Shown here in pieces: positions 3,105 through 40,628 of a DNA stretch of 64,000 nucleotides. The stretch comes from a virus (lineage: Duplodnaviria > Heunggongvirae > Uroviricota > Caudoviricetes): positions 20,476-84,475 of IMG/VR virus record IMGVR_UViG_2684622670_000009, one strand, 5' to 3'. The position numbers and the translations under genes were made by a program. The notes under the pieces were generated by a model. It searched no databases. It was not told the DNA's origin and worked only from the letters and a program-made list of their open reading frames with translations. Every line of letters begins with the position of its first letter. Positions within the stretch are counted from its first letter, which is position 1.

Positions 3105-4148
3105 TTATCTAACGCTCGACGAGTGACTTGTGATAGCGCCGACTCCAAGCGCGTAATCAAAGAACAATCGTTGATGCATCGCCAGCCTACCGTGCGTCTT
3201 CTCCCAATTATCGCGGTCACGCTCAATATCACGCTGGCATGACTGGCACAGAGGAATTGCGTAAATGTCATGCGCGCATAATCGACTATGACGAACGATA
3301 TAAGGCGTAATGTGAGCGCCAGCTCCCGCCGCTCCACACCCACAGCATGGACGGGAAGCAACAAAGTCCATGTACTCAGGTAATTTTAGCGATTGCAGTT
3401 TTGGTATTTTGAAATGCGCCATGCCAGGGTCGGAGTCAACATCCACAGGGCATACTTTTGCACGCATCAGCGCGGCGCGTTCTTCCATCATCTGAACATA
3501 TGCTGTAGCGCGATCGTCATACGGGCGAATATCCGCCTCTTTCAGAGGTCCGCTATCCTGCGTTGCGGCTTTCATCTTATTTATTGATATACGGCAAACT
3601 TCTTCCGGCATCAGGTGCATCATGTTGCGCATGAAAGCCCACCAGCACAGTTCCTGAATACTTAAATCATGGCCATCTGAAAGCCCCATTTCCTGACGGG
3701 CGACATCCAGTATCCAGTTAACGCGATTATTATGCAGCGTTTCTTTCAGCTCATTAAAACCACGCATCCGGTAATGGTTATCGTGATGCCAGCACAACAA
3801 CACCGCGCTATTGTCTCGTTCTGCGTGGACAATATGGTTGTCACACCAGCTACGATCTGCGGCCTGGCATTGCCCCTCTTTCCTGCGCAACCACGCCAAC
3901 AGCGAGTCAATTCCACCAATACGGCGAAACAGTTCATCGCTGTTAAAAAACGGCTGCAACGCCTCATTTGTTGCCATGGTTTGCTCGGTAACAACGAGGC
4001 CGTCTTCCATGTGCTCGATTAACTCACGCGGCACCGGCTCCATAATAAATTTACGGCCAGCCTCCACCAGCTTTCTGACCTCCTGATCCACTTTGAACGT
4101 GGCGAGGCCAAGCTCTTTCTGTACAAAGGGAGTAATTACGGCTTTCAC
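3105..4148 (-). CDS. pdcB: Cys/His-rich protein at the P1 pdcB (post-doc) position
   Basis: 347-aa ORF with CCGCG and CQSC clusters. Assigned by synteny doc-pdcA-pdcB-lpa. Confidence 0.6.
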
Positions 4149-4175
4149 ATCACACCTTTCATCACTGATTGGGCT

Positions 4176-4376
4176 TTATCTGCTGCCCGGCATTCTCTGT
4201 TTAAGCACAACCATTTCCTGACGGCATAACACAGCAATAGCTGTCCTGGCACCAATTTGCTTACCAACCAGGTATTGCTTTACCTCGCGGCGACTCACGC
4301 CATCAAGAAGCATCTTTAACGCTTCACGGGACAATTTGTTGTATTTACGTGCCATTAATCTACTCCGCGGAACCAT
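4176..4376 (-). CDS. pdcA: Small basic protein at the P1 pdcA position
   Basis: 66-aa ORF whose start overlaps the doc 3' end by 17 nt. Assigned by synteny only. Confidence 0.5.
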
Positions 4377-4740
4377 ACAATCTACGTAACGTGTCGGCGA
4401 CAGAAGATACAGATATCTCTCCGGTCGCAGCCCCTACGGTAAGGTCTGCCAGTTCAGGTGAATCAAATACCTGCACCCCGTTACGGCGTAGAAATAGCAG
4501 CGCACTGTTTAGCGCGGTACGCTTATTGGCATCATTGAATATATGCCCTCTCGCTGTAGCCACCAGGTAGGTGGCGGAGACTTCGAAAAGGTCGGTGATC
4601 TCTTCGTAGGCAACTCTGGCCTGAACTCTCCCGATAATGGCCTCTGCCCTACCCGGATCTGACATTCCCGGCAGGCCGCCGTAGCGGTTTATATTCGCAT
4701 CATGAAGCGCAATAAGTTCTTCCGGTGATATATGCCTCAT
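4360..4740 (-). CDS. doc: Doc toxin (Fic-fold kinase) of the phd-doc addiction module
   Basis: 126 aa, [22 protein letters not shown]...[19 protein letters not shown] (Fic-type motif). Start overlaps the phd stop. Confidence 0.95.
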
Positions 4741-4961
4741 TATCGGTTAACCAGTTCCTTGTTGGTGGAGTCCAAGGTGTCAAACAGGGATGCAAATTCA
4801 GCATCCAGCGCCGCTTTTTTGTAGGCTTCGAAAGTAGCCTTGCTGACAATTACTGCTGGCTCACGGCCTCTGCGGGTGATTTCAACCTCTTCCCCGGCCT
4901 CAACATTGTTGAGCACTTCAGAAAGGTTGCCGCGCGCGGTACGGAAGTTAATGGATTGCAT
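4740..4961 (-). CDS. phd: Phd antitoxin
   Basis: 73 aa, [49 protein letters not shown]; matches P1 Phd. Confidence 0.95.
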
Positions 4962-4967
4962 AAATAC

Positions 4968-4995
4968 CTCGTGTACTCGTTATGTGTACACAATT
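4968..4995. promoter_or_regulatory. Probable phd-doc operator palindromes
   Basis: GTGTAC at 4971 and the palindrome TGTGTACACA at 4984-4993 lie immediately upstream of phd. Confidence 0.35.
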
Positions 4996-5137
4996 ATAAA
5001 CTTCACAGGCATAAAGCACCAGCACTTTGCGGCTTAACAAACCTCTAGGCAGGTCATTCGTAGCCTAATGTCCGAACTGCTAAAGCATCCAAGTTGCTGT
5101 AGAATCACCGCCAATTACATAAGCCTGAAATAAGTGG

Positions 5138-34034: not shown

Positions 34035-34142
34035 TTATCCACAGCATAGATCCAATAAACAGATCCAAAAGAGAACCCTAGAAGATCCAAATAAGATCCC
34101 GGATCGCTGCAGGCCGCGCCATGTCTGGCCTGAAACGTGATC
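34035..34142. promoter_or_regulatory. Plasmid origin (oriR-type) left part: DnaA box plus GATC cluster
   Basis: TTATCCACA at 34035-34043. GATC at 34049, 34062, 34084, 34095, 34102 and 34139, mostly within AGATCC heptamers as in P1 oriR. Confidence 0.7.
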
Positions 34143-34143
34143 A

Positions 34144-34250
34144 ACATTGACTATATGCGATTTTATGTTGACTGTACACGATTTATTGTTGACTACACGC
34201 GATTTTATGTTGACTATACGCGATATAAACATTGACTGTACGCGATTTTA
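34144..34250 (+). repeat. Five origin iterons (incC-type) at 21-22 bp spacing
   Basis: The TTGACT(A/G)(T/C)A(T/C)(A/G)CGAT core starts at 34147, 34168, 34189, 34210 and 34232. Confidence 0.8.
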
Positions 34251-34326
34251 AAGCCTGAATATTCACAGCTGTTGATAACAGCCATCCAAATTGACGTCAG
34301 GCCGCGCCACACATGGAGAAACCACG

Positions 34327-35211
34327 ATGCCGGAAGAAAGTAAAGGCTTCCTTAGCGTTGAAGAAGTTGCAGGAAATACAGGAGAAATCCACAGCCTGAA
34401 ACCCAATAACAACAGCACTATACAACCCATCGCTTTGTTGCGCTTAGGTGTGTTTGTGCCAACCTTAAAATCTACCAATGTGGCACTACGTCGCGGATCG
34501 TCAGTTACTACAAACACAACGAACGCAACCGAAGAACTATCAAGCCTCAAAATTGTTGAGCAGGAAGGCTATGAGGGAATTGAAATTCATGGTCCACGCC
34601 TGGATATGGATACTGATTTTAAGGTGTGGGTGGGCATAACCTCCGCGTTGTTTGACTATGCACCTGATGATGACGGTATAATTACCCTGCCATTCTCCGA
34701 GTTTGCCGATCGATGCGGCTATCCACGTAAGCGCCTTTCAAAGGCGTTCCGTAAAAGTATTGATGACTCTCTGACACGCATTCAGCAGACAGTTGTCAAA
34801 TTCCGCTTCCCGGCGGCAAAAGGTCATCTCAATAACATTAACGTCAACTTGTTGGCATATAGCAGCCTGAATACCGAGCTTGATGTTATCGAGATCCAGC
34901 CGCAGAAACAGCTATCTGAACTTTACTATGTTGACTATAAGCGAATCCTGAAGCTGAAGATGCTGGATAAGCTCGGGCGCAAAGAGACGGCCAAGGTACT
35001 GTATACATTCTTTGAGGCTCTACCTGCCAACCCAGCACCTGTCAGCATTGAGCGCCTTAGAGCAAGGCTTAACCTCAAATCATCCGTTAGCGTGCAAAAT
35101 AGCGTTATCAGAAAAGCCATGAAAGATTTGGAAGCTATTGAATATCTTAAATTTTCAGAGATAAAAAACGGCAGGAAAATCGGCTTCCAGATCCATAAGC
35201 GCAATCCATAA
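34327..35211 (+). CDS. repA: Iteron-binding replication initiator RepA (P1 RepA family, divergent)
   Basis: Shares blocks with P1 RepA (VQPVALMRLGVFVP-like IQPIALLRLGVFVP, ITGPRLDMDTDFK-like IHGPRLDMDTDFK) but is otherwise divergent. Start taken at ATG 34327 after GGAGA. Confidence 0.85.
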   Translation: MPEESKGFLSVEEVAGNTGEIHSLKPNNNSTIQPIALLRLGVFVPTLKSTNVALRRGSSVTTNTTNATEELSSLKIVEQEGYEGIEIHGPRLDMDTDFKVWVGITSALFDYAPDDDGIITLPFSEFADRCGYPRKRLSKAFRKSIDDSLTRIQQTVVKFRFPAAKGHLNNINVNLLAYSSLNTELDVIEIQPQKQLSELYYVDYKRILKLKMLDKLGRKETAKVLYTFFEALPANPAPVSIERLRARLNLKSSVSVQNSVIRKAMKDLEAIEYLKFSEIKNGRKIGFQIHKRNP

Positions 35212-35212
35212 T

Positions 35213-35480
35213 ATTGACTATATGCGATAGCGAGAAGTTGACTATAGGCGACATTCGTTGACGCTGGTGGATTTTTGCTGGCGTCAATATTCTGCAAGTC
35301 GCTATTGAGATGGCTTTTAGGGTCATTTCATCGCGTATAGTCAACGTTTCTCCCGACAATATCTTACATAGTCGATCTTTGGTGGAGTTAAATCGACTAC
35401 AGTCAACTTTTGACTGTGGTCATATCGCGCATAGTCAACTATTCACATTAACCTTCGCGCATAGTCAACATTTGCGCGGT
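35213..35480. repeat. incA-type iteron cluster (copy-number control)
   Basis: At least seven full or partial copies of the TTGACTATAnGCGA iteron. Two to three are direct (35216, 35238, 35258); the others are inverted (e.g. CGCGTATAGTCAAC, CGCGCATAGTCAAC x2, GACTACAGTCAAC). Confidence 0.7.
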
Positions 35481-35503
35481 TCTCATCAAGCAGTGGTATT
35501 GAT

Positions 35504-36313
35504 ATGCAAGAAGAGAAACAACACTACCTCTACGTTCTGGTGCCGGAGAACGGAGATACTTTTAAAATCGGCATTTCATGTGGTCCATTGGCACGGTTTA
35601 AAGGGCTACAAGTGAGTCCCGATATTGCGCTTTCACGAATCTATCGTGGTACGCGTTTGGCAATGGTTAATCTTGAGCGGGCTTTACACGCAACCTTTTT
35701 CCCCTGGAATGCGCCGTGGGAGAAAAGCGCCGGTGGCGGGCATACTGAATGGTTTACACGAGAGTGTCTTGATAAGGTTTTGGCTCATATCGAATATCTA
35801 AATGATATGTGGGGAGGGATTCTCGAGCTCATTAAGTCGAATGATTTACTTCAGCGTCCAGTAGATGCTGCTCGCTCTTTCGAAAAAGAGCTGGATGTTA
35901 CTTCTATCGTGACTTTCAAAGATGACGCAGGAATGAGGGATGTGGCTTATGTCTCCATATCTGGCTATGAACCGGACGCGATCCGCGCTCAATGTGAATT
36001 GCTGAAAGCAATGTTTATGCTTCGGACTAAATATCCCTGGGAGACAGGGCGGGTGTGCTTCCCTATGGAAGAGTTAACCGCCACCATTGATTCCCAGCTT
36101 TACCACGATAATCCAGAGAAGTTTTTTAGCCTTTTAGCCGGTAATGGGCTTAACTGTGTGTCCGGGCTGGGGCGAAGTAGAATCCAACATGCCTCGCTCT
36201 TCGGTCCCTTTTTTTACGATCGACACGGGTACTTTGAGGCTGAACTTCCGGCGCTTACGCGTGCTATAGATACTATCGATTTCGAACGATTATTCGCTGC
36301 TCTTAGCAAATAA
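35504..36313 (+). CDS. T5orf172 / GIY-YIG-like domain protein with an unknown C-terminal domain
   Basis: 269 aa with YLYVLVPENGDTFKIGIS...LERALHATF...GGGHTEWF, the T5orf172-type pattern. No equivalent gene between incA and parA in P1, as I recall it. Confidence 0.6.
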   Translation: MQEEKQHYLYVLVPENGDTFKIGISCGPLARFKGLQVSPDIALSRIYRGTRLAMVNLERALHATFFPWNAPWEKSAGGGHTEWFTRECLDKVLAHIEYLNDMWGGILELIKSNDLLQRPVDAARSFEKELDVTSIVTFKDDAGMRDVAYVSISGYEPDAIRAQCELLKAMFMLRTKYPWETGRVCFPMEELTATIDSQLYHDNPEKFFSLLAGNGLNCVSGLGRSRIQHASLFGPFFYDRHGYFEAELPALTRAIDTIDFERLFAALSK

Positions 36314-36320
36314 CACTGAT

Positions 36321-36341
36321 GCCCCTGAACGGGGCTTTTTT
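36321..36341 (+). terminator. Rho-independent terminator
   Basis: GCCCC-TGAAC-GGGGC followed by TTTTTT. Confidence 0.75.
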
Positions 36342-36481
36342 GTGCCCTCCTTGTAACTATCAATCGTACAAAATGAACGAAACATGCAGAGAATGTTATG
36401 TACAAGCATCTACGCATACATTATTATTTTATGCAGCATTTTTAATTAAATTCAAAAATACAGCATAAAGGATGACTTTCG

Positions 36482-37678
36482 ATGAGTGATTCCAGCCAGC
36501 TTCACAAGGTTGCTCAAAGAGCAAACAGAATGCTCAATGTTCTGACTGAACAAGTACAGTTGCAAAAGGATGAGCTACACGCGAACGAGTTTTACCAGGT
36601 CTATGCGAAAGCGGCACTGGCAAAATTGCCTCTACTGACTCGAGCGAACGTTGACTATGCCGTAAGTGAAATGGAAGAAAAGGGTTATGTTTTCGATAAA
36701 CGCCCTGCTGGCTCTTCAATGAAATATGCGATGTCAATTCAGAACATCATTGATATATATGAACATCGCGGAGTGCCAAAATACCGGGATCGCTACAGCG
36801 AAGCGTATGTTATTTTCATCTCCAATCTTAAAGGCGGTGTGTCAAAAACTGTATCGACGGTTTCTCTGGCGCATGCAATGCGTGCCCACCCTCATCTTCT
36901 GATGGAAGATTTAAGGATTCTGGTTATTGACCTTGATCCGCAATCTTCAGCAACGATGTTTTTAAGCCATAAACACTCTATTGGTATCGTAAACGCAACA
37001 TCTGCACAGGCTATGTTGCAGAATGTAAGCCGTGAAGAGCTGTTAGAGGAGTTTATTGTTCCTTCTGTTGTACCTGGGGTTGACGTTATGCCTGCGTCGA
37101 TTGACGATGCCTTTATTGCATCCGATTGGAGAGAGCTGTGCAATGAGCATCTACCGGGTCAGAACATCCATGCTGTCCTGAAAGAAAATGTGATTGATAA
37201 GCTGAAGAGCGATTATGACTTTATCCTCGTTGATAGTGGTCCTCACCTTGACGCCTTCCTGAAAAATGCTTTGGCCTCGGCCAATATACTGTTTACACCT
37301 CTGCCGCCAGCAACTGTCGATTTCCACTCATCGCTTAAATACGTTGCCCGCCTTCCTGAGTTGGTGAAACTCATTTCGGATGAAGGCTGCGAATGCCAGC
37401 TTGCGACTAACATTGGTTTTATGTCCAAGTTGAGTAACAAGGCAGACCATAAGTATTGCCATAGCCTGGCGAAAGAAGTGTTCGGTGGGGATATGCTCGA
37501 TGTCGTCCTACCTCGCCTTGATGGTTTCGAACGCTGCGGCGAGTCCTTTGACACTGTTATTTCTGCTAATCCGGCAACGTATGTTGGTAGTGCTGACGCA
37601 CTGAAGAACGCGCGCATCGCCGCTGAAGATTTTGCAAAAGCAGTTTTTGACCGTATTGAATTTATCAGATCTAACTAA
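36482..37678 (+). CDS. parA: Partition ATPase ParA (type Ia)
   Basis: 398 aa with the deviant Walker A KGGVSKT. Matches my memory of P1 ParA almost residue for residue. Confidence 0.95.
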   Translation: MSDSSQLHKVAQRANRMLNVLTEQVQLQKDELHANEFYQVYAKAALAKLPLLTRANVDYAVSEMEEKGYVFDKRPAGSSMKYAMSIQNIIDIYEHRGVPKYRDRYSEAYVIFISNLKGGVSKTVSTVSLAHAMRAHPHLLMEDLRILVIDLDPQSSATMFLSHKHSIGIVNATSAQAMLQNVSREELLEEFIVPSVVPGVDVMPASIDDAFIASDWRELCNEHLPGQNIHAVLKENVIDKLKSDYDFILVDSGPHLDAFLKNALASANILFTPLPPATVDFHSSLKYVARLPELVKLISDEGCECQLATNIGFMSKLSNKADHKYCHSLAKEVFGGDMLDVVLPRLDGFERCGESFDTVISANPATYVGSADALKNARIAAEDFAKAVFDRIEFIRSN

Positions 37679-37694
37679 GGAGTAAGAAAACGCC

Positions 37695-38696
37695 ATGTCA
37701 AAGAAAAACAGACCAACAATTGGGCGAACCCTTAATCCTTCAGTATTAAGCGCATTTGATAGTTCCTCTGCCTCTGGTGATCGGGTTGAGCAGGTATTCA
37801 AGCTATCAACTGGTCGCCAGGCTACATTCATTGAGGAGGTAATCCCTCCAAACCGGGTAGAAGGCGATACCTTTGTTGATCAGCATAACAACGGACGTGA
37901 TCAGGCAGCTCTTACACCAAAATCATTAAAAAGCATCAGAAGCACCATTAAGCATCAGCAATTTTACCCAGCAATAGGTGTTAGACGGGCTACAGGAAAA
38001 ATTGAAATTTTGGATGGTTCCCGGCGTCGAGCTTCTGCCATCTTAGAGAACGTAGGGTTGCGGGTTTTAGTCACGGACCAGGAGATCAGCGTCCAGGAAG
38101 CGCAAAATTTAGCGAAAGACGTTCAGACAGCATTGCAGCACAGCATTCGAGAAATAGGTCTGCGTTTGATGCGAATGAAAAATGATGGGATGAGTCAGAA
38201 GGATATTGCAGCCAAAGAAGGGCTATCTCAGGCGAAGGTCACGCGCGCTCTCCAGGCAGCGAGTGCTCCGGAAGAATTAGTCGCCCTTTTCCCTGTGCAG
38301 TCGGAATTAACCTTTTCGGACTACAAAACGCTTTGTGCTGTTGGCGACGAAATGGGGAACAAGAATTTAGAGTTTGATCAGCTTATTCAAAACATATCCG
38401 CGGAAATAAACGACATCTTATCCATTGAAGAAATGGCCGAAGATGAAGTTAAAAATAAAATCCTGCGCTTGATAACAAAGGAAGCCTCACTACTCACGGA
38501 TAAAGGTTCTAAAGATAAGTCCGTAGTTACTGAATTATGGAGATTTGAGGACAAGGATCGCTTTGCAAGGAAGCGCGTGAAAGGCCGTGCATTTTCTTAT
38601 GAGTTTAATCGACTTTCAAAAGAGCTACAGGAAGAACTCGACAGGATGATTGGGCATATCCTTAGAAAGAGCCTCGATAAAAAGCCGAAGCCTTAA
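37695..38696 (+). CDS. parB: Partition centromere-binding protein ParB
   Basis: 333 aa, MSKKNRPTIGRTLNPS...ILDGSRRR. Matches P1 ParB. Confidence 0.95.
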   Translation: MSKKNRPTIGRTLNPSVLSAFDSSSASGDRVEQVFKLSTGRQATFIEEVIPPNRVEGDTFVDQHNNGRDQAALTPKSLKSIRSTIKHQQFYPAIGVRRATGKIEILDGSRRRASAILENVGLRVLVTDQEISVQEAQNLAKDVQTALQHSIREIGLRLMRMKNDGMSQKDIAAKEGLSQAKVTRALQAASAPEELVALFPVQSELTFSDYKTLCAVGDEMGNKNLEFDQLIQNISAEINDILSIEEMAEDEVKNKILRLITKEASLLTDKGSKDKSVVTELWRFEDKDRFARKRVKGRAFSYEFNRLSKELQEELDRMIGHILRKSLDKKPKP

Positions 38697-38698
38697 AC

Positions 38699-38784
38699 TT
38701 TCGCCATTCAAATTTCACTATTAACCTACTGTTTTTAAATTAAATCCCTCTAAAATTTCAAGGTGAAATCGCCACGATTTCACC
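38699..38784 (+). promoter_or_regulatory. parS: parS centromere
   Basis: Box A ATTTCAC heptamers and Box B TCGCCA hexamers flank an AT-rich (IHF) centre: TTCGCCATTCAAATTTCAC...AAATTTCAAGGTGAAATCGCCACGATTTCAC. Confidence 0.85.
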
Positions 38785-38846
38785 TTGGATTTTACCTTCC
38801 TCGCCTACTCCCGAAAAAAATAAAAAAATTGCTTGTCACGAGAAAG

Positions 38847-38870
38847 TCAACAAGTGACTTTCAATAAAAT
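38847..38870 (+). promoter_or_regulatory. Late promoter of the head/sheath operon
   Basis: TCAACAAGTGACTTTCAATAAAAT, with the inverted repeat AGTCA-N5-TGACT. Confidence 0.55.
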
Positions 38871-38921
38871 CTCTTCCGAAAAGGGATTCACACAAGTGCC
38901 TTGTGTTTAAGGAAGAGTAAA

Positions 38922-40628
38922 TTGAGTAACTTACGCGAATACCAGAATCGTATTGCAGATATCGCAAAACGCTCTAAAGCTGTGCTTGGCTGGGCAAGCA
39001 CTGCGCAGTTCGGTACTGATAACCAATTCATTAAAGATGATGCCGCGCGTGCCGCATCTATCCTTGAAGCTGCACGTAAAGACCCGATTTTTGCGGGTAT
39101 CTCTGATAATGCCACCGCTCAAATCGCTACAGCGTGGGCAAGTGCACTGGCTGACTACGCCGCAGCACATAAATCTATGCCGCGTCCGGAAATTCTGGCC
39201 TCCTGCCACCAGACGCTGGAAAACTGCCTGATTGAGTCCACCCGCAATAGCATGGATGCCACTAATAAAGCGATGCTGGAATCCGTCGCAGCAGAGATGA
39301 TGAGCGTTTCTGACGGTGTTATGCGTCTGCCTTTATTCCTCGCGATGATCCTGCCTGTTCAGTTGGGGGCAGCTACCGCTGATGCGTGTACCTTCATTCC
39401 GGTTACGCGTGACCAGTCCGATATCTACGAAGTCTTTAACGTGGCAGGTTCCTCTTTTGGTTCTTATGCTGCTGGTGATGTTCTGGACATGCAATCCGTC
39501 GGTGTGTACAGCCAGTTACGCCGCCGCTATGTGCTGGTGGCAAGCTCCGATGGCACCAGCAAAACCGCAACCTTCAAGATGGAAGACTTCGAAGGCCAGA
39601 ATGTACCAATCCGAAAAGGTCGCACTAACATCTACGTTAACCGTATTAAGTATGTTGTTGATAACGGTTCCGGCAGCCTACTTCACTCGTTTACTAATGC
39701 TGCTGGTGAGCAAATCACTGTTACCTGCTCTCTGAACTACAACATTGGTCAGATTGCCCTGTCGTTCTCCAAAGCGCCGGATAAAGGCACTGAGATCGCA
39801 ATTGAGACGGAAATCAATATTGAAGCCGCTCCTGAGCTGATCCCGCTGATCAACCACGAAATGAAGAAATACACCCTGTTCCCAAGCCAGTTCGTTATCG
39901 CGGCTGAGCACACGGTACAGGCGGCGTATGAAGCACAGCGTGAATTTGGTCTGGACCTGGGTTCCTTACAGTTCCGCACCCTGAAAGAATACCTGTCCCA
40001 TGAACAGGATATGTTGCGTCTCCGCATCATGATCTGGCGTACTCTTGCGACCGACACCTTTGACATCGCTCTGCCGGTTAACCAGTCCTTTGATGTATGG
40101 GCAACCATCATTCGTGGCAAATTCCAGACTGTATATCGCGACATTATTGAGCGCGTTAAATCTTCTGGTGCGATGGGGATGTTTGCTGGTGCTGATGCAG
40201 CATCTTTCTTCAAACAGTTGCCGAAGGATTTCTTCCAGCCAGCCGAAGACTATATCCAGACTCCGTATGTTCACTACATCGGTACCCTGTTCGGTAACGT
40301 GAAAGTGTACGAAGTACCTGCTGGTATTTGTAAGAACTTAACGACAGAGAACATTCAGCTCAGCTCGATGGATGTGCTGTGCTACGTCCGTGATGAAAAT
40401 CCGGGTAAAGCAGGCTTCGTGACTGGTGATGCTGTCCCGGCCATCCCGTTCCAGCATCCGACCACTCCGGCGCTGGTCAACCGTACCACGCTGTGGGGTT
40501 CGGCTATCAACGATATGCACCCACGCAACGGCGCTGATTACTTCACTCGTGTAACGCTGACAATGGCCAAAAAAGGCGGGCTTAACTTCATTAGCGGCGA
40601 CACGATTGATGCCGGTGACTCTGAGTAA
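38922..40628 (+). CDS. 23: Major head protein (P1 gene 23)
   Basis: TTG start at 38922 after AAGGAAGAG. (M)SNLREYQNRIADIAKRSKAVLGWASTAQFGTDNQF matches P1 gp23. Confidence 0.85.
   Translation: MSNLREYQNRIADIAKRSKAVLGWASTAQFGTDNQFIKDDAARAASILEAARKDPIFAGISDNATAQIATAWASALADYAAAHKSMPRPEILASCHQTLENCLIESTRNSMDATNKAMLESVAAEMMSVSDGVMRLPLFLAMILPVQLGAATADACTFIPVTRDQSDIYEVFNVAGSSFGSYAAGDVLDMQSVGVYSQLRRRYVLVASSDGTSKTATFKMEDFEGQNVPIRKGRTNIYVNRIKYVVDNGSGSLLHSFTNAAGEQITVTCSLNYNIGQIALSFSKAPDKGTEIAIETEINIEAAPELIPLINHEMKKYTLFPSQFVIAAEHTVQAAYEAQREFGLDLGSLQFRTLKEYLSHEQDMLRLRIMIWRTLATDTFDIALPVNQSFDVWATIIRGKFQTVYRDIIERVKSSGAMGMFAGADAASFFKQLPKDFFQPAEDYIQTPYVHYIGTLFGNVKVYEVPAGICKNLTTENIQLSSMDVLCYVRDENPGKAGFVTGDAVPAIPFQHPTTPALVNRTTLWGSAINDMHPRNGADYFTRVTLTMAKKGGLNFISGDTIDAGDSE

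What the first reader, a model, noticed from the sequence alone, without database searches (positions are those of the whole stretch)
35504..36313. T5orf172/GIY-YIG-like gene inserted between the incA iterons and parA
The maintenance region has a 269-aa gene with an N-terminal T5orf172-type domain (YLYVLVPENGDTFKIGIS ... GGGHTEWF) and an unrecognised ~160-aa C-terminal domain. It has its own terminator (36321-36341). P1 has parA directly after incA, as I recall. T5orf172 domains occur in homing-endonuclease-like and defence-associated proteins. An insertion here hitch-hikes on the most stably inherited part of the plasmid.
Basis: partly seen in the sequence, partly recalled or inferred. Interest (0 to 1): 0.5.

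Follow-up and report, generated by a model that had tools for sequence, protein, structure and literature searches.

The report
Nuclease gene riding P1-plasmid replication cassette
A real but dispensable gene for a homing-endonuclease-type DNA cutter sits between the replication and partition genes of a common family of P1-like phage-plasmids, always travelling with the replication module, and may help that module compete with or displace rival versions.

Summary
Window 35504-36313(+) encodes a 269-aa protein with an N-terminal T5orf172/GIY-YIG nuclease domain (Pfam above threshold, all catalytic-motif residues present, SLX1-like fold). It has a C-terminal ~145-aa domain with no sequence family and its own terminator. 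Canonical P1 and P7 lack it. It is not a solo insertion here. Relative to P1, a 2,250-bp block (34130-36379: iterons, repA, iterons, this gene) replaces 1,491 bp: the known 'p0111' versus IncY replicon swap. The gene is near-universal in that replicon type (about 400 plasmids; 412 of 5,426 complete E. coli genomes) and RefSeq names it 'GIY-YIG nuclease family protein'; its function is unstudied. New here: homologs fill the same slot in three further P1-like lineages and co-vary with Rep, not with par or the backbone. One lineage is a clean indel against a P1-type replicon. The gene is dispensable (up to 9 of 44 copies disrupted; pN/pS 0.31 versus 0.00-0.06 for neighbours). The AF2 C-domain is a winged helix whose best solved matches, apart from two unassigned mitoribosomal chains, are iteron-initiator WH1 domains (modest scores, no sequence homology). 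Best reading: a free-standing homing-endonuclease-type nuclease linked to the Rep cassette; an Odn-like anti-replicon role is the main rival. No activity is shown.

The parts
34130..36379 (+). Alternative replicon cassette (p0111 type) with no DNA homology to canonical P1; it replaces P1 locus L002 1136-2626 (1,491 bp)
   Evidence: blastn window versus P1: 33000-34129 = P1 1-1135 (95.9%) and 36380-39000 = P1 2627-5247 (97.6%)
34143..34245 (+). Five direct iterons at 21-22 bp spacing (incC/origin-like), core TTGACTATACGCGA
   Evidence: the repeat finder family D1; same position as the incC iterons of P1
34291..35211 (+). repA, Rep_3-type initiator (306 aa from TTG; RefSeq aa from the ATG at 34327); 42% identical to P1 RepA
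   Evidence: RefSeq annotation
35210..35473 (.). incA-like iteron array: two direct (35210-35227, 35234-35251) and four inverted (35331-35349, 35393-35411, 35425-35443, 35455-35473)
   Evidence: the repeat finder families D1 and D4 and inverted pairs I1-I25
35504..35818 (+). N-terminal T5orf172/GIY-YIG nuclease domain (aa 1-105) with the catalytic-motif residues Y10, K21, G23, R31, E58, H62, E82
35819..35878 (+). Interdomain linker (aa 106-125), low model confidence (pLDDT <50 at aa 119-125), variable in length between lineages
   Evidence: AF2 model; alignment A3
35879..36313 (+). C-terminal domain (aa ~126-269, plus stop codon): three beta-strands followed by a winged helix; no sequence family; found only in P1-like rep-par slot proteins; its best solved-structure matches, apart from two unassigned mitoribosomal chains, are Rep WH1 domains
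36321..36345 (+). Intrinsic terminator (GCCCC-TGAAC-GGGGC followed by TTTTTTGTGC), still inside the non-P1 block
   Evidence: sequence
36399..36427 (+). par operon promoter, equivalent to P1 Ppar by coordinate offset; P1 homology resumes 19 bp upstream of it
   Evidence: promoter scan; P1 annotation Ppar at L002 2646-2674 with the offset
36482..38696 (+). parA (36482-37678) and parB (37695-38696), P1-type (ParA 100%, ParB 98% identical to P1)

Best explanation
The gene encodes a free-standing homing-endonuclease-type DNase of the T5orf172 clade of GIY-YIG nucleases. The domain order is that of I-TevI and Seg proteins: an N-terminal catalytic domain, a flexible linker and a C-terminal DNA-binding (winged-helix) domain. 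It sits at the right-hand edge of the exchangeable Rep-iteron cassette of P1-like phage-plasmids. Shown: the domain identity, the intact catalytic motifs, the conserved slot in four lineages, linkage to Rep rather than to par or the backbone, dispensability, and relaxed but real purifying selection. Inferred: the protein binds and cuts a specific site in the rep-inc-par region of related P1-like plasmids that lack it or carry another cassette. Recombinational repair from the nuclease-bearing plasmid would then copy the gene together with the adjacent Rep cassette. That would make it a selfish passenger which also promotes replicon-cassette replacement.
Confidence: 0.45

Rival explanations
1. 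Odn-like origin-directed nuclease used in plasmid-versus-plasmid competition. The C-terminal winged-helix domain, Rep-WH1-like in fold, would recognise the iterons or origin of a rival P1-like replicon (for example IncY P1), or would dock onto a rival RepA. The T5orf172 domain would then cut there and eliminate the competitor.
Confidence: 0.2
2. Domesticated accessory factor of the replicon. The protein would bind the incA-like iterons or RepA through its WH1-like domain and tune copy number, handcuffing or par expression. The nuclease domain would be used for nicking or not at all.
For: Strict linkage to Rep and iterons in four lineages. Position between incA and Ppar with its own terminator. 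Possible co-transcription with repA, since no promoter or terminator lies between them. Purifying selection is present (pN/pS 0.31). The window type has six incA-like iterons where P1 has nine. Precedents exist for T5orf172-lineage homing endonuclease parts becoming regulators (CapR, PMC8096241).
Against: The gene is dispensable. Complete plasmids including pO111_2 and phage SJ46 carry nonsense alleles, and up to 9 of 44 copies are disrupted. An 85%-identical RepA with its iterons exists in another plasmid family without the gene. Canonical P1 and P7 manage without it. Catalytic residues are strictly kept, which a pure DNA-binding role would not require. Constraint is far weaker than on repA, parA and parB.
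Confidence: 0.12
3. Anti-phage defence or superinfection-exclusion cargo: a nuclease that attacks incoming foreign phage DNA to the benefit of the host and the plasmid.
For: One distant N-domain relative lies in a chromosomal island beside Mrr-type nuclease and WYL genes. Phage-plasmids often carry defence genes (abstracts listed).
Against: No match to any of 5,027 PADLOC models. It is a single gene without partner genes. The C-domain is confined to the rep-par slot of P1-like elements. The gene co-varies with Rep rather than sitting in the known variable cargo regions.
Confidence: 0.08
4. Functionless relic: a once-mobile nuclease gene now inactive and simply decaying, kept only by linkage to repA and parA.
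For: Up to about 20% of copies are disrupted, by independent events. pN/pS is 5-15 times higher than in neighbouring genes. No promoter was detected and ribosome-binding sites are weak.
Against: pN/pS is 0.31-0.33, well below 1, also among intact alleles only. All catalytic-motif residues are unchanged in 25 intact alleles and across four lineages that are only 25-44% identical. The two-domain architecture has been retained through deep divergence.
Confidence: 0.1

Closest known systems
Free-standing GIY-YIG homing endonucleases with an N-terminal catalytic domain and a C-terminal DNA-binding domain (I-TevI, T4 Seg proteins)
   Same: Same superfamily, same order of modules (nuclease, linker, DNA-binding domain), intergenic location next to essential genes, presence/absence polymorphism between close relatives, and frequent decay.
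   Different: The catalytic domain belongs to the T5orf172 clade (K in place of the second Tyr). The C-terminal domain is a winged helix with no similarity to the I-TevI zinc-finger/HTH modules. The host is a plasmid-prophage maintenance region rather than a lytic phage gene cluster. Homing has not been shown.
T5orf172 homing-endonuclease genes of ICP1, T5-like and other phages (Barth, Dunham & Seed 2023, PMC10448857)
   Same: Same nuclease domain (structural matches at probability 1.00). These genes lie next to essential genes and at the boundaries of exchanged modules, and their DNA-binding parts evolve fast.
   Different: Those proteins mostly carry N-terminal CapR/DUF723/DUF4397 zinc-finger DNA-binding repeats with the T5orf172 domain at the C-terminus. 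Here the order is reversed, there is no CxxC motif, and the DNA-binding domain is a family restricted to P1-like plasmids.
Odn (ICP1 gp88), the origin-directed nuclease
   Same: A T5orf172 nuclease combined with a replication-initiator-like DNA-binding fold, encoded by one mobile element in a setting where replicon modules (Rep plus iterons) are swapped.
   Different: The DNA-binding domain of Odn is 42% identical to PLE RepA_N; here no sequence similarity to any Rep is detectable and the fold resemblance (Rep_3-type WH1) is modest. The domain order is reversed. No target is known. Odn is encoded away from any origin, whereas this gene lies beside its own plasmid's iterons.
P1/P7 plasmid maintenance region (oriR-repA-incA-parA-parB-parS)
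   Same: Same overall layout. The par operon is P1-type (ParA 100% identical), and the left part of oriR and Ppar are conserved.
   Different: Canonical P1 and P7 have no gene between incA and Ppar. RepA is only 42% identical, the iterons have a different sequence, and incA has six rather than nine copies.

Membership tests
T5orf172 (PF10544) / GIY-YIG nuclease superfamily | Profile match above the curated threshold | tested here: met
   PF10544 E=1.1e-5, 26.2 bits against a cut-off of 20, aa 8-85; phrog_681 endonuclease 3.5e-8
T5orf172 (PF10544) / GIY-YIG nuclease superfamily | Catalytic-motif residues: first-motif Tyr, K/Y-x-G second motif, conserved Arg, His, and metal-binding Glu | tested here: met
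   Y10, K21, G23, R31, E58 and E82 are invariant and H62 nearly invariant over 38 homologs; conserved in four lineages and in 25 intact alleles
T5orf172 (PF10544) / GIY-YIG nuclease superfamily | GIY-YIG alpha/beta fold | tested here: met
T5orf172 (PF10544) / GIY-YIG nuclease superfamily | DNA cleavage activity | not testable with these tools
   Needs biochemistry
Free-standing homing endonuclease gene | Presence/absence polymorphism at the same intergenic site between otherwise homologous genomes | tested here: met
   P1 versus L006: homology runs through the last incA iteron and resumes at Ppar, with the gene as the indel; P1 and P7 lack it
Free-standing homing endonuclease gene | Nuclease domain joined to a sequence-specific DNA-binding domain | tested here: inconclusive
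   The C-domain is predicted to be a winged helix, but DNA binding has not been shown
Free-standing homing endonuclease gene | Cleaves the allele that lacks it and is copied in by repair (biased inheritance) | not testable with these tools
   Needs cleavage mapping and genetic crosses
Free-standing homing endonuclease gene | Dispensable for the host element, with recurrent degeneration | tested here: met
   Up to 9 of 44 copies disrupted (seven nonsense at three sites, one IS insertion, one partial copy where its contig ends); pN/pS 0.31-0.33
Odn-like origin-directed nuclease (T5orf172 plus Rep-derived DNA-binding domain) | DNA-binding domain homologous in sequence to a replication initiator | tested here: not met
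   blastp against six Rep and four Par proteins, best E 0.6-5; hhalign C-domain profile versus Rep profile, probability 0.2; no Pfam Rep family in four members
Odn-like origin-directed nuclease (T5orf172 plus Rep-derived DNA-binding domain) | DNA-binding domain with an initiator-type fold | tested here: inconclusive
Odn-like origin-directed nuclease (T5orf172 plus Rep-derived DNA-binding domain) | Iteron-dependent cleavage of a rival origin | not testable with these tools
   Needs in vitro nuclease assays on iteron-plus and iteron-minus substrates
Known anti-phage defence systems (PADLOC-DB) | Match to a defence-protein model | tested here: not met
   No hit for the whole protein or the C-domain at E <= 1
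Canonical P1 maintenance region | Gene present at this position in P1 or P7 | tested here: not met
   Curated P1 and P7 annotations and blastn/tblastn

The most novel reading that the evidence does not exclude
The protein is a 'replicon-drive' nuclease. Its Rep-WH1-like C-domain would direct the T5orf172 nuclease to the iteron/junction region of rival P1-like replicons. The rival plasmid would then either be destroyed or be repaired from the nuclease-bearing plasmid, copying in the whole Rep-iteron-nuclease cassette. This would explain mechanistically how P1-like phage-plasmids swap IncY and p0111 replicons on otherwise near-identical backbones. It could also contribute to their near-complete mutual exclusion in E. 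coli (2 co-occurrences against 27 expected).
Probability: 0.2. Interest if true: 0.75.

Novelty: new variant of a known kind. Interest (0 to 1): 0.45.

Why it matters
P1-like phage-plasmids are common in Enterobacteriaceae: either the window-type gene or an IncY repA is found in 769 of 5,426 complete E. coli genomes (about 14%). They are recognised vehicles of ESBL and mcr genes. They come in two main replicon types whose exchange has been described but not explained. If the nuclease gene that always accompanies the non-IncY cassettes cuts rival replicons or drives cassette conversion, it would be a plasmid-borne counterpart of the phage-satellite weapon Odn. It would also be a concrete mechanism for incompatibility-group switching, which matters for plasmid typing, plasmid epidemiology and P1-derived vectors. 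If it is only a selfish homing-type gene, it is still a clear case of such a gene occupying the replication-partition junction of a plasmid prophage. It would also define a new DNA-binding domain family with no Pfam model.

Tried and rejected
(1) C-domain captured from a neighbouring Rep or Par protein: blastp against six Rep and four Par proteins and hhalign of profiles gave nothing. Rejected at sequence level.
(2) Hidden C-domain homology in the other 142 N-domain relatives: a C-domain HMM gave a best E of 0.017. Rejected; the domain is confined to the P1-like slot proteins.
(3) Family assignment of the C-domain by Pfam, NCBIfam, PADLOC, PHROGs or PDB sequence search: nothing.
(4) A remnant of the gene in the incA-Ppar spacer of P1 or P7: permissive tblastn and blastn found no signal.
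(5) The first AF2 run, with a two-sequence alignment, was unusable (pLDDT 51); it was replaced by a 38-sequence alignment (pLDDT 85).
(7) An own sigma-70 promoter between repA and the ATG: none was found by the scan.
(8) A diversity trough or compositional anomaly marking a recent sweep or foreign origin: pi is 0.010 and GC is 47%, like the neighbours. Rejected. The lower pS of the gene (0.027 versus about 0.05) falls within the regional heterogeneity.
(9) More lineages in annotated collections: tblastn with P0009 against PLSDB, and with the window protein against INPHARED, found only the window type. GTDB species representatives gave one E. coli-group contig.
(10) Co-occurrence with IncY P1 as a test of the anti-rival idea: strong depletion. 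Judged non-diagnostic because the two types share a par type and, by inference, phage immunity.

Full report
OBSERVATION. The ORF at 35504-36313 (+) exists as described: 269 aa with an ATG start. Pfam assigns aa 8-85 to T5orf172 (PF10544; E=1.1e-5, 26.2 bits, curated cut-off 20), with weaker hits to the related MUG113 and URI-fold families. The remaining ~160 aa match nothing in Pfam, NCBIfam or PADLOC, and in PHROGs only the family itself (phrog_2876, unknown function). Iterons with core TTGACTATACGCGA occur as five direct copies at 34143-34245. A further six copies (two direct, four inverted) lie at 35210-35473, the last ending 31 nt before the ATG. Upstream is a Rep_3-type repA; downstream are parA and parB.

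WHAT THE ELEMENT IS. The window is a P1-like phage-plasmid. The rep-par region is 97-98% identical to Salmonella phage SJ46, Escherichia phage RCS47, JL22 and others. Against the curated P1 record, homology runs to window 34129, which lies inside oriR after the Dam-site cluster and just before the incC iterons. It resumes at 36380, 19 bp before Ppar. The 2,250-bp block 34130-36379 therefore replaces 1,491 bp of P1. The par operon is P1-type (ParA 100%, ParB 98% identical), whereas RepA is only 42% identical to P1 RepA. This is the published IncY-versus-p0111 replicon dichotomy of P1-like plasmids. [quoted passage not shown] P1 and P7 have no gene between incA and parA, and no relic of one.

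DISTRIBUTION AND LINKAGE. The gene occurs at >=95% identity in 12 phage records and 401 PLSDB plasmids. It is in 412 of 5,426 complete E. coli genomes, almost always on plasmids. RefSeq names it 'GIY-YIG nuclease family protein'. The matching repA is in 399 PLSDB records, so the two are essentially always together. An exhaustive HMMER scan of 1.84 billion representative proteins found the two-domain protein in only three further forms: P0004, P0009 and P0011. Every other hit covers the N-domain alone or is a fragment. All three lie on P1-like contigs in the same slot, Rep - iterons - this gene - ParA - ParB - gp23. The comparison matrix is decisive on linkage. L004 and L006 share a backbone (gp23 99%, ParA 100%, ParB 98%). 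L004 has a window-type Rep (83%) and L006 a P1-type Rep (83% to P1 RepA), and their slot proteins differ correspondingly (29%). L007 combines a fourth Rep type with a P7-type par. The gene therefore belongs to the Rep-iteron cassette, not to par or the backbone. L006 aligns with P1 through the last incA iteron and again from Ppar, so there the gene is a clean indel at the incA|Ppar junction. Conversely, an 85%-identical RepA with its iterons sits in an unrelated tail-gene-bearing plasmid without the gene.

SELECTION AND DISPENSABILITY. In 44 unselected loci (IMG/VR plus one GTDB genome) the gene is intact in 35. Seven copies carry nonsense mutations at three different sites (aa 68, 112 and 228). 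One copy is interrupted by an IS200/IS605 element and one is only partially matched where its contig ends. By comparison, repA and parA each have one frameshifted copy and parB has none disrupted. The name-giving plasmid pO111_2 and phage SJ46 both carry nonsense alleles. pN/pS is 0.31-0.33 (0.33 among intact alleles only), against 0.02 for repA, 0.00 for parA and 0.06 for parB. No intact allele alters a catalytic-motif residue. Between the window and L004 the N-domain is 64% identical and the C-domain 32%, while RepA is 83% identical and the iteron type is the same. So the C-domain is not tracking the plasmid's own iterons. Nucleotide diversity and GC content match the neighbours. No sigma-70-like promoter is detected between repA and the ATG, and Shine-Dalgarno sequences are weak in all four lineages.

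INTERPRETATION. The best-supported reading is a free-standing homing-endonuclease-type T5orf172 nuclease with an I-TevI-like module order. It resides at the right edge of the Rep cassette, it is dispensable, and it still appears catalytically competent. T5orf172 genes are documented to sit beside essential genes and at the boundaries of exchanged modules (PMC10448857). Here the P1 homology boundary lies 67 bp past the stop codon. The main rival is an Odn-like anti-replicon nuclease. It is suggested by the initiator-like fold, the position beside the iterons and the Rep co-variation. The near-absence of co-residence with IncY P1 replicons fits it as well: 412 + 359 - 769 = 2 genomes against 27.3 expected, Poisson P = 6e-10. 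That statistic is confounded by the shared par type and, by inference, shared immunity. The lack of sequence similarity to any Rep means the defining feature of Odn is not met. A domesticated replication accessory, a defence gene and a dead relic are less likely, for the reasons given under the rival explanations. No activity has been shown for any member of the family, so all mechanistic steps are inference.

NOVELTY. The ORF and its generic annotation are already public, and the cassette swap is published. Four things are new here. The slot is conserved across four Rep lineages with linkage to Rep. A P1-type replicon can carry the gene, which makes P1 and P7 the exceptions. Dispensability and relaxed constraint are now quantified. 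The C-domain is a previously undescribed domain family confined to P1-like elements, with an initiator-like winged-helix fold. I rate it a new variant of a known kind, of moderate interest.

Noticed in passing
L005 (CP042620.1) 3898-5135; corresponds to window 34035-35274: An 85%-identical RepA with its origin iterons sits in a 93.7-kb E. coli plasmid with tail genes and no P1 synteny. It has neither the T5orf172 gene nor an adjacent par operon, so the replicon core moves between plasmid families on its own.
   Followed up: partly
window 36482-38696, compared with L004, L006 and L007: Rep and Par modules reassort independently in P1-like elements. The window has a p0111 Rep with P1 par. L004 and L006 share a third par variant (ParA 89%, ParB 67% to P1) but have different Reps. 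L007 has a fourth Rep type with P7-type par (ParA 99%).
   Followed up: partly
E. coli complete genomes: The window-type gene (412 genomes) and IncY P1 repA (359 genomes) co-occur in only 2 of 5,426 genomes, against 27 expected. The cause was not resolved: shared par incompatibility, immunity, or something else.
   Followed up: partly
L061 4295-6057 (IMGVR_UViG_2645727563_000002): One copy of the gene is interrupted by an IS200/IS605-type element (a 389-aa TnpB-like ORF and a 141-aa Y1 transposase-like ORF), with loss of 229 bp of the gene.
   Followed up: yes
window 34927-34944: An iteron-like 18-mer (94% identical to the reference iteron) lies inside the repA coding sequence. It could be a chance match or an internal RepA-binding site.
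   Followed up: no
OR339795.1 (phage phi456) 39979-40788: This gene is annotated there as 'terminase small subunit', which nothing found here supports. In SJ46 the CDS is called short (227 aa) because of a Q228* nonsense codon.
   Followed up: yes
PLSDB typing of L012-L017: MOB-suite labels these P1-like plasmids as replicon 'IncHI1B', which looks like a typing artefact for the p0111-type Rep.
   Followed up: no
window 34291 versus 34327: The mechanical ORF for repA starts at TTG 34291 (306 aa), whereas RefSeq records start it at the ATG equivalent to 34327 (294 aa). The true start was not resolved here.
   Followed up: no
window 35310-35615 (+): A 101-aa ORF runs through the inverted iterons into the start of the nuclease gene. 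Its translation is largely iteron sequence (repeated AHSQ motifs), so it is most likely spurious. The gene caller made the same kind of error in extending P0004 by 41 aa at its N-terminus.
   Followed up: partly
E. coli chromosomes: Seven places for the gene and eleven for IncY repA lie on chromosome records rather than plasmids. These may be integrated P1-like elements or assembly joins.
   Followed up: no
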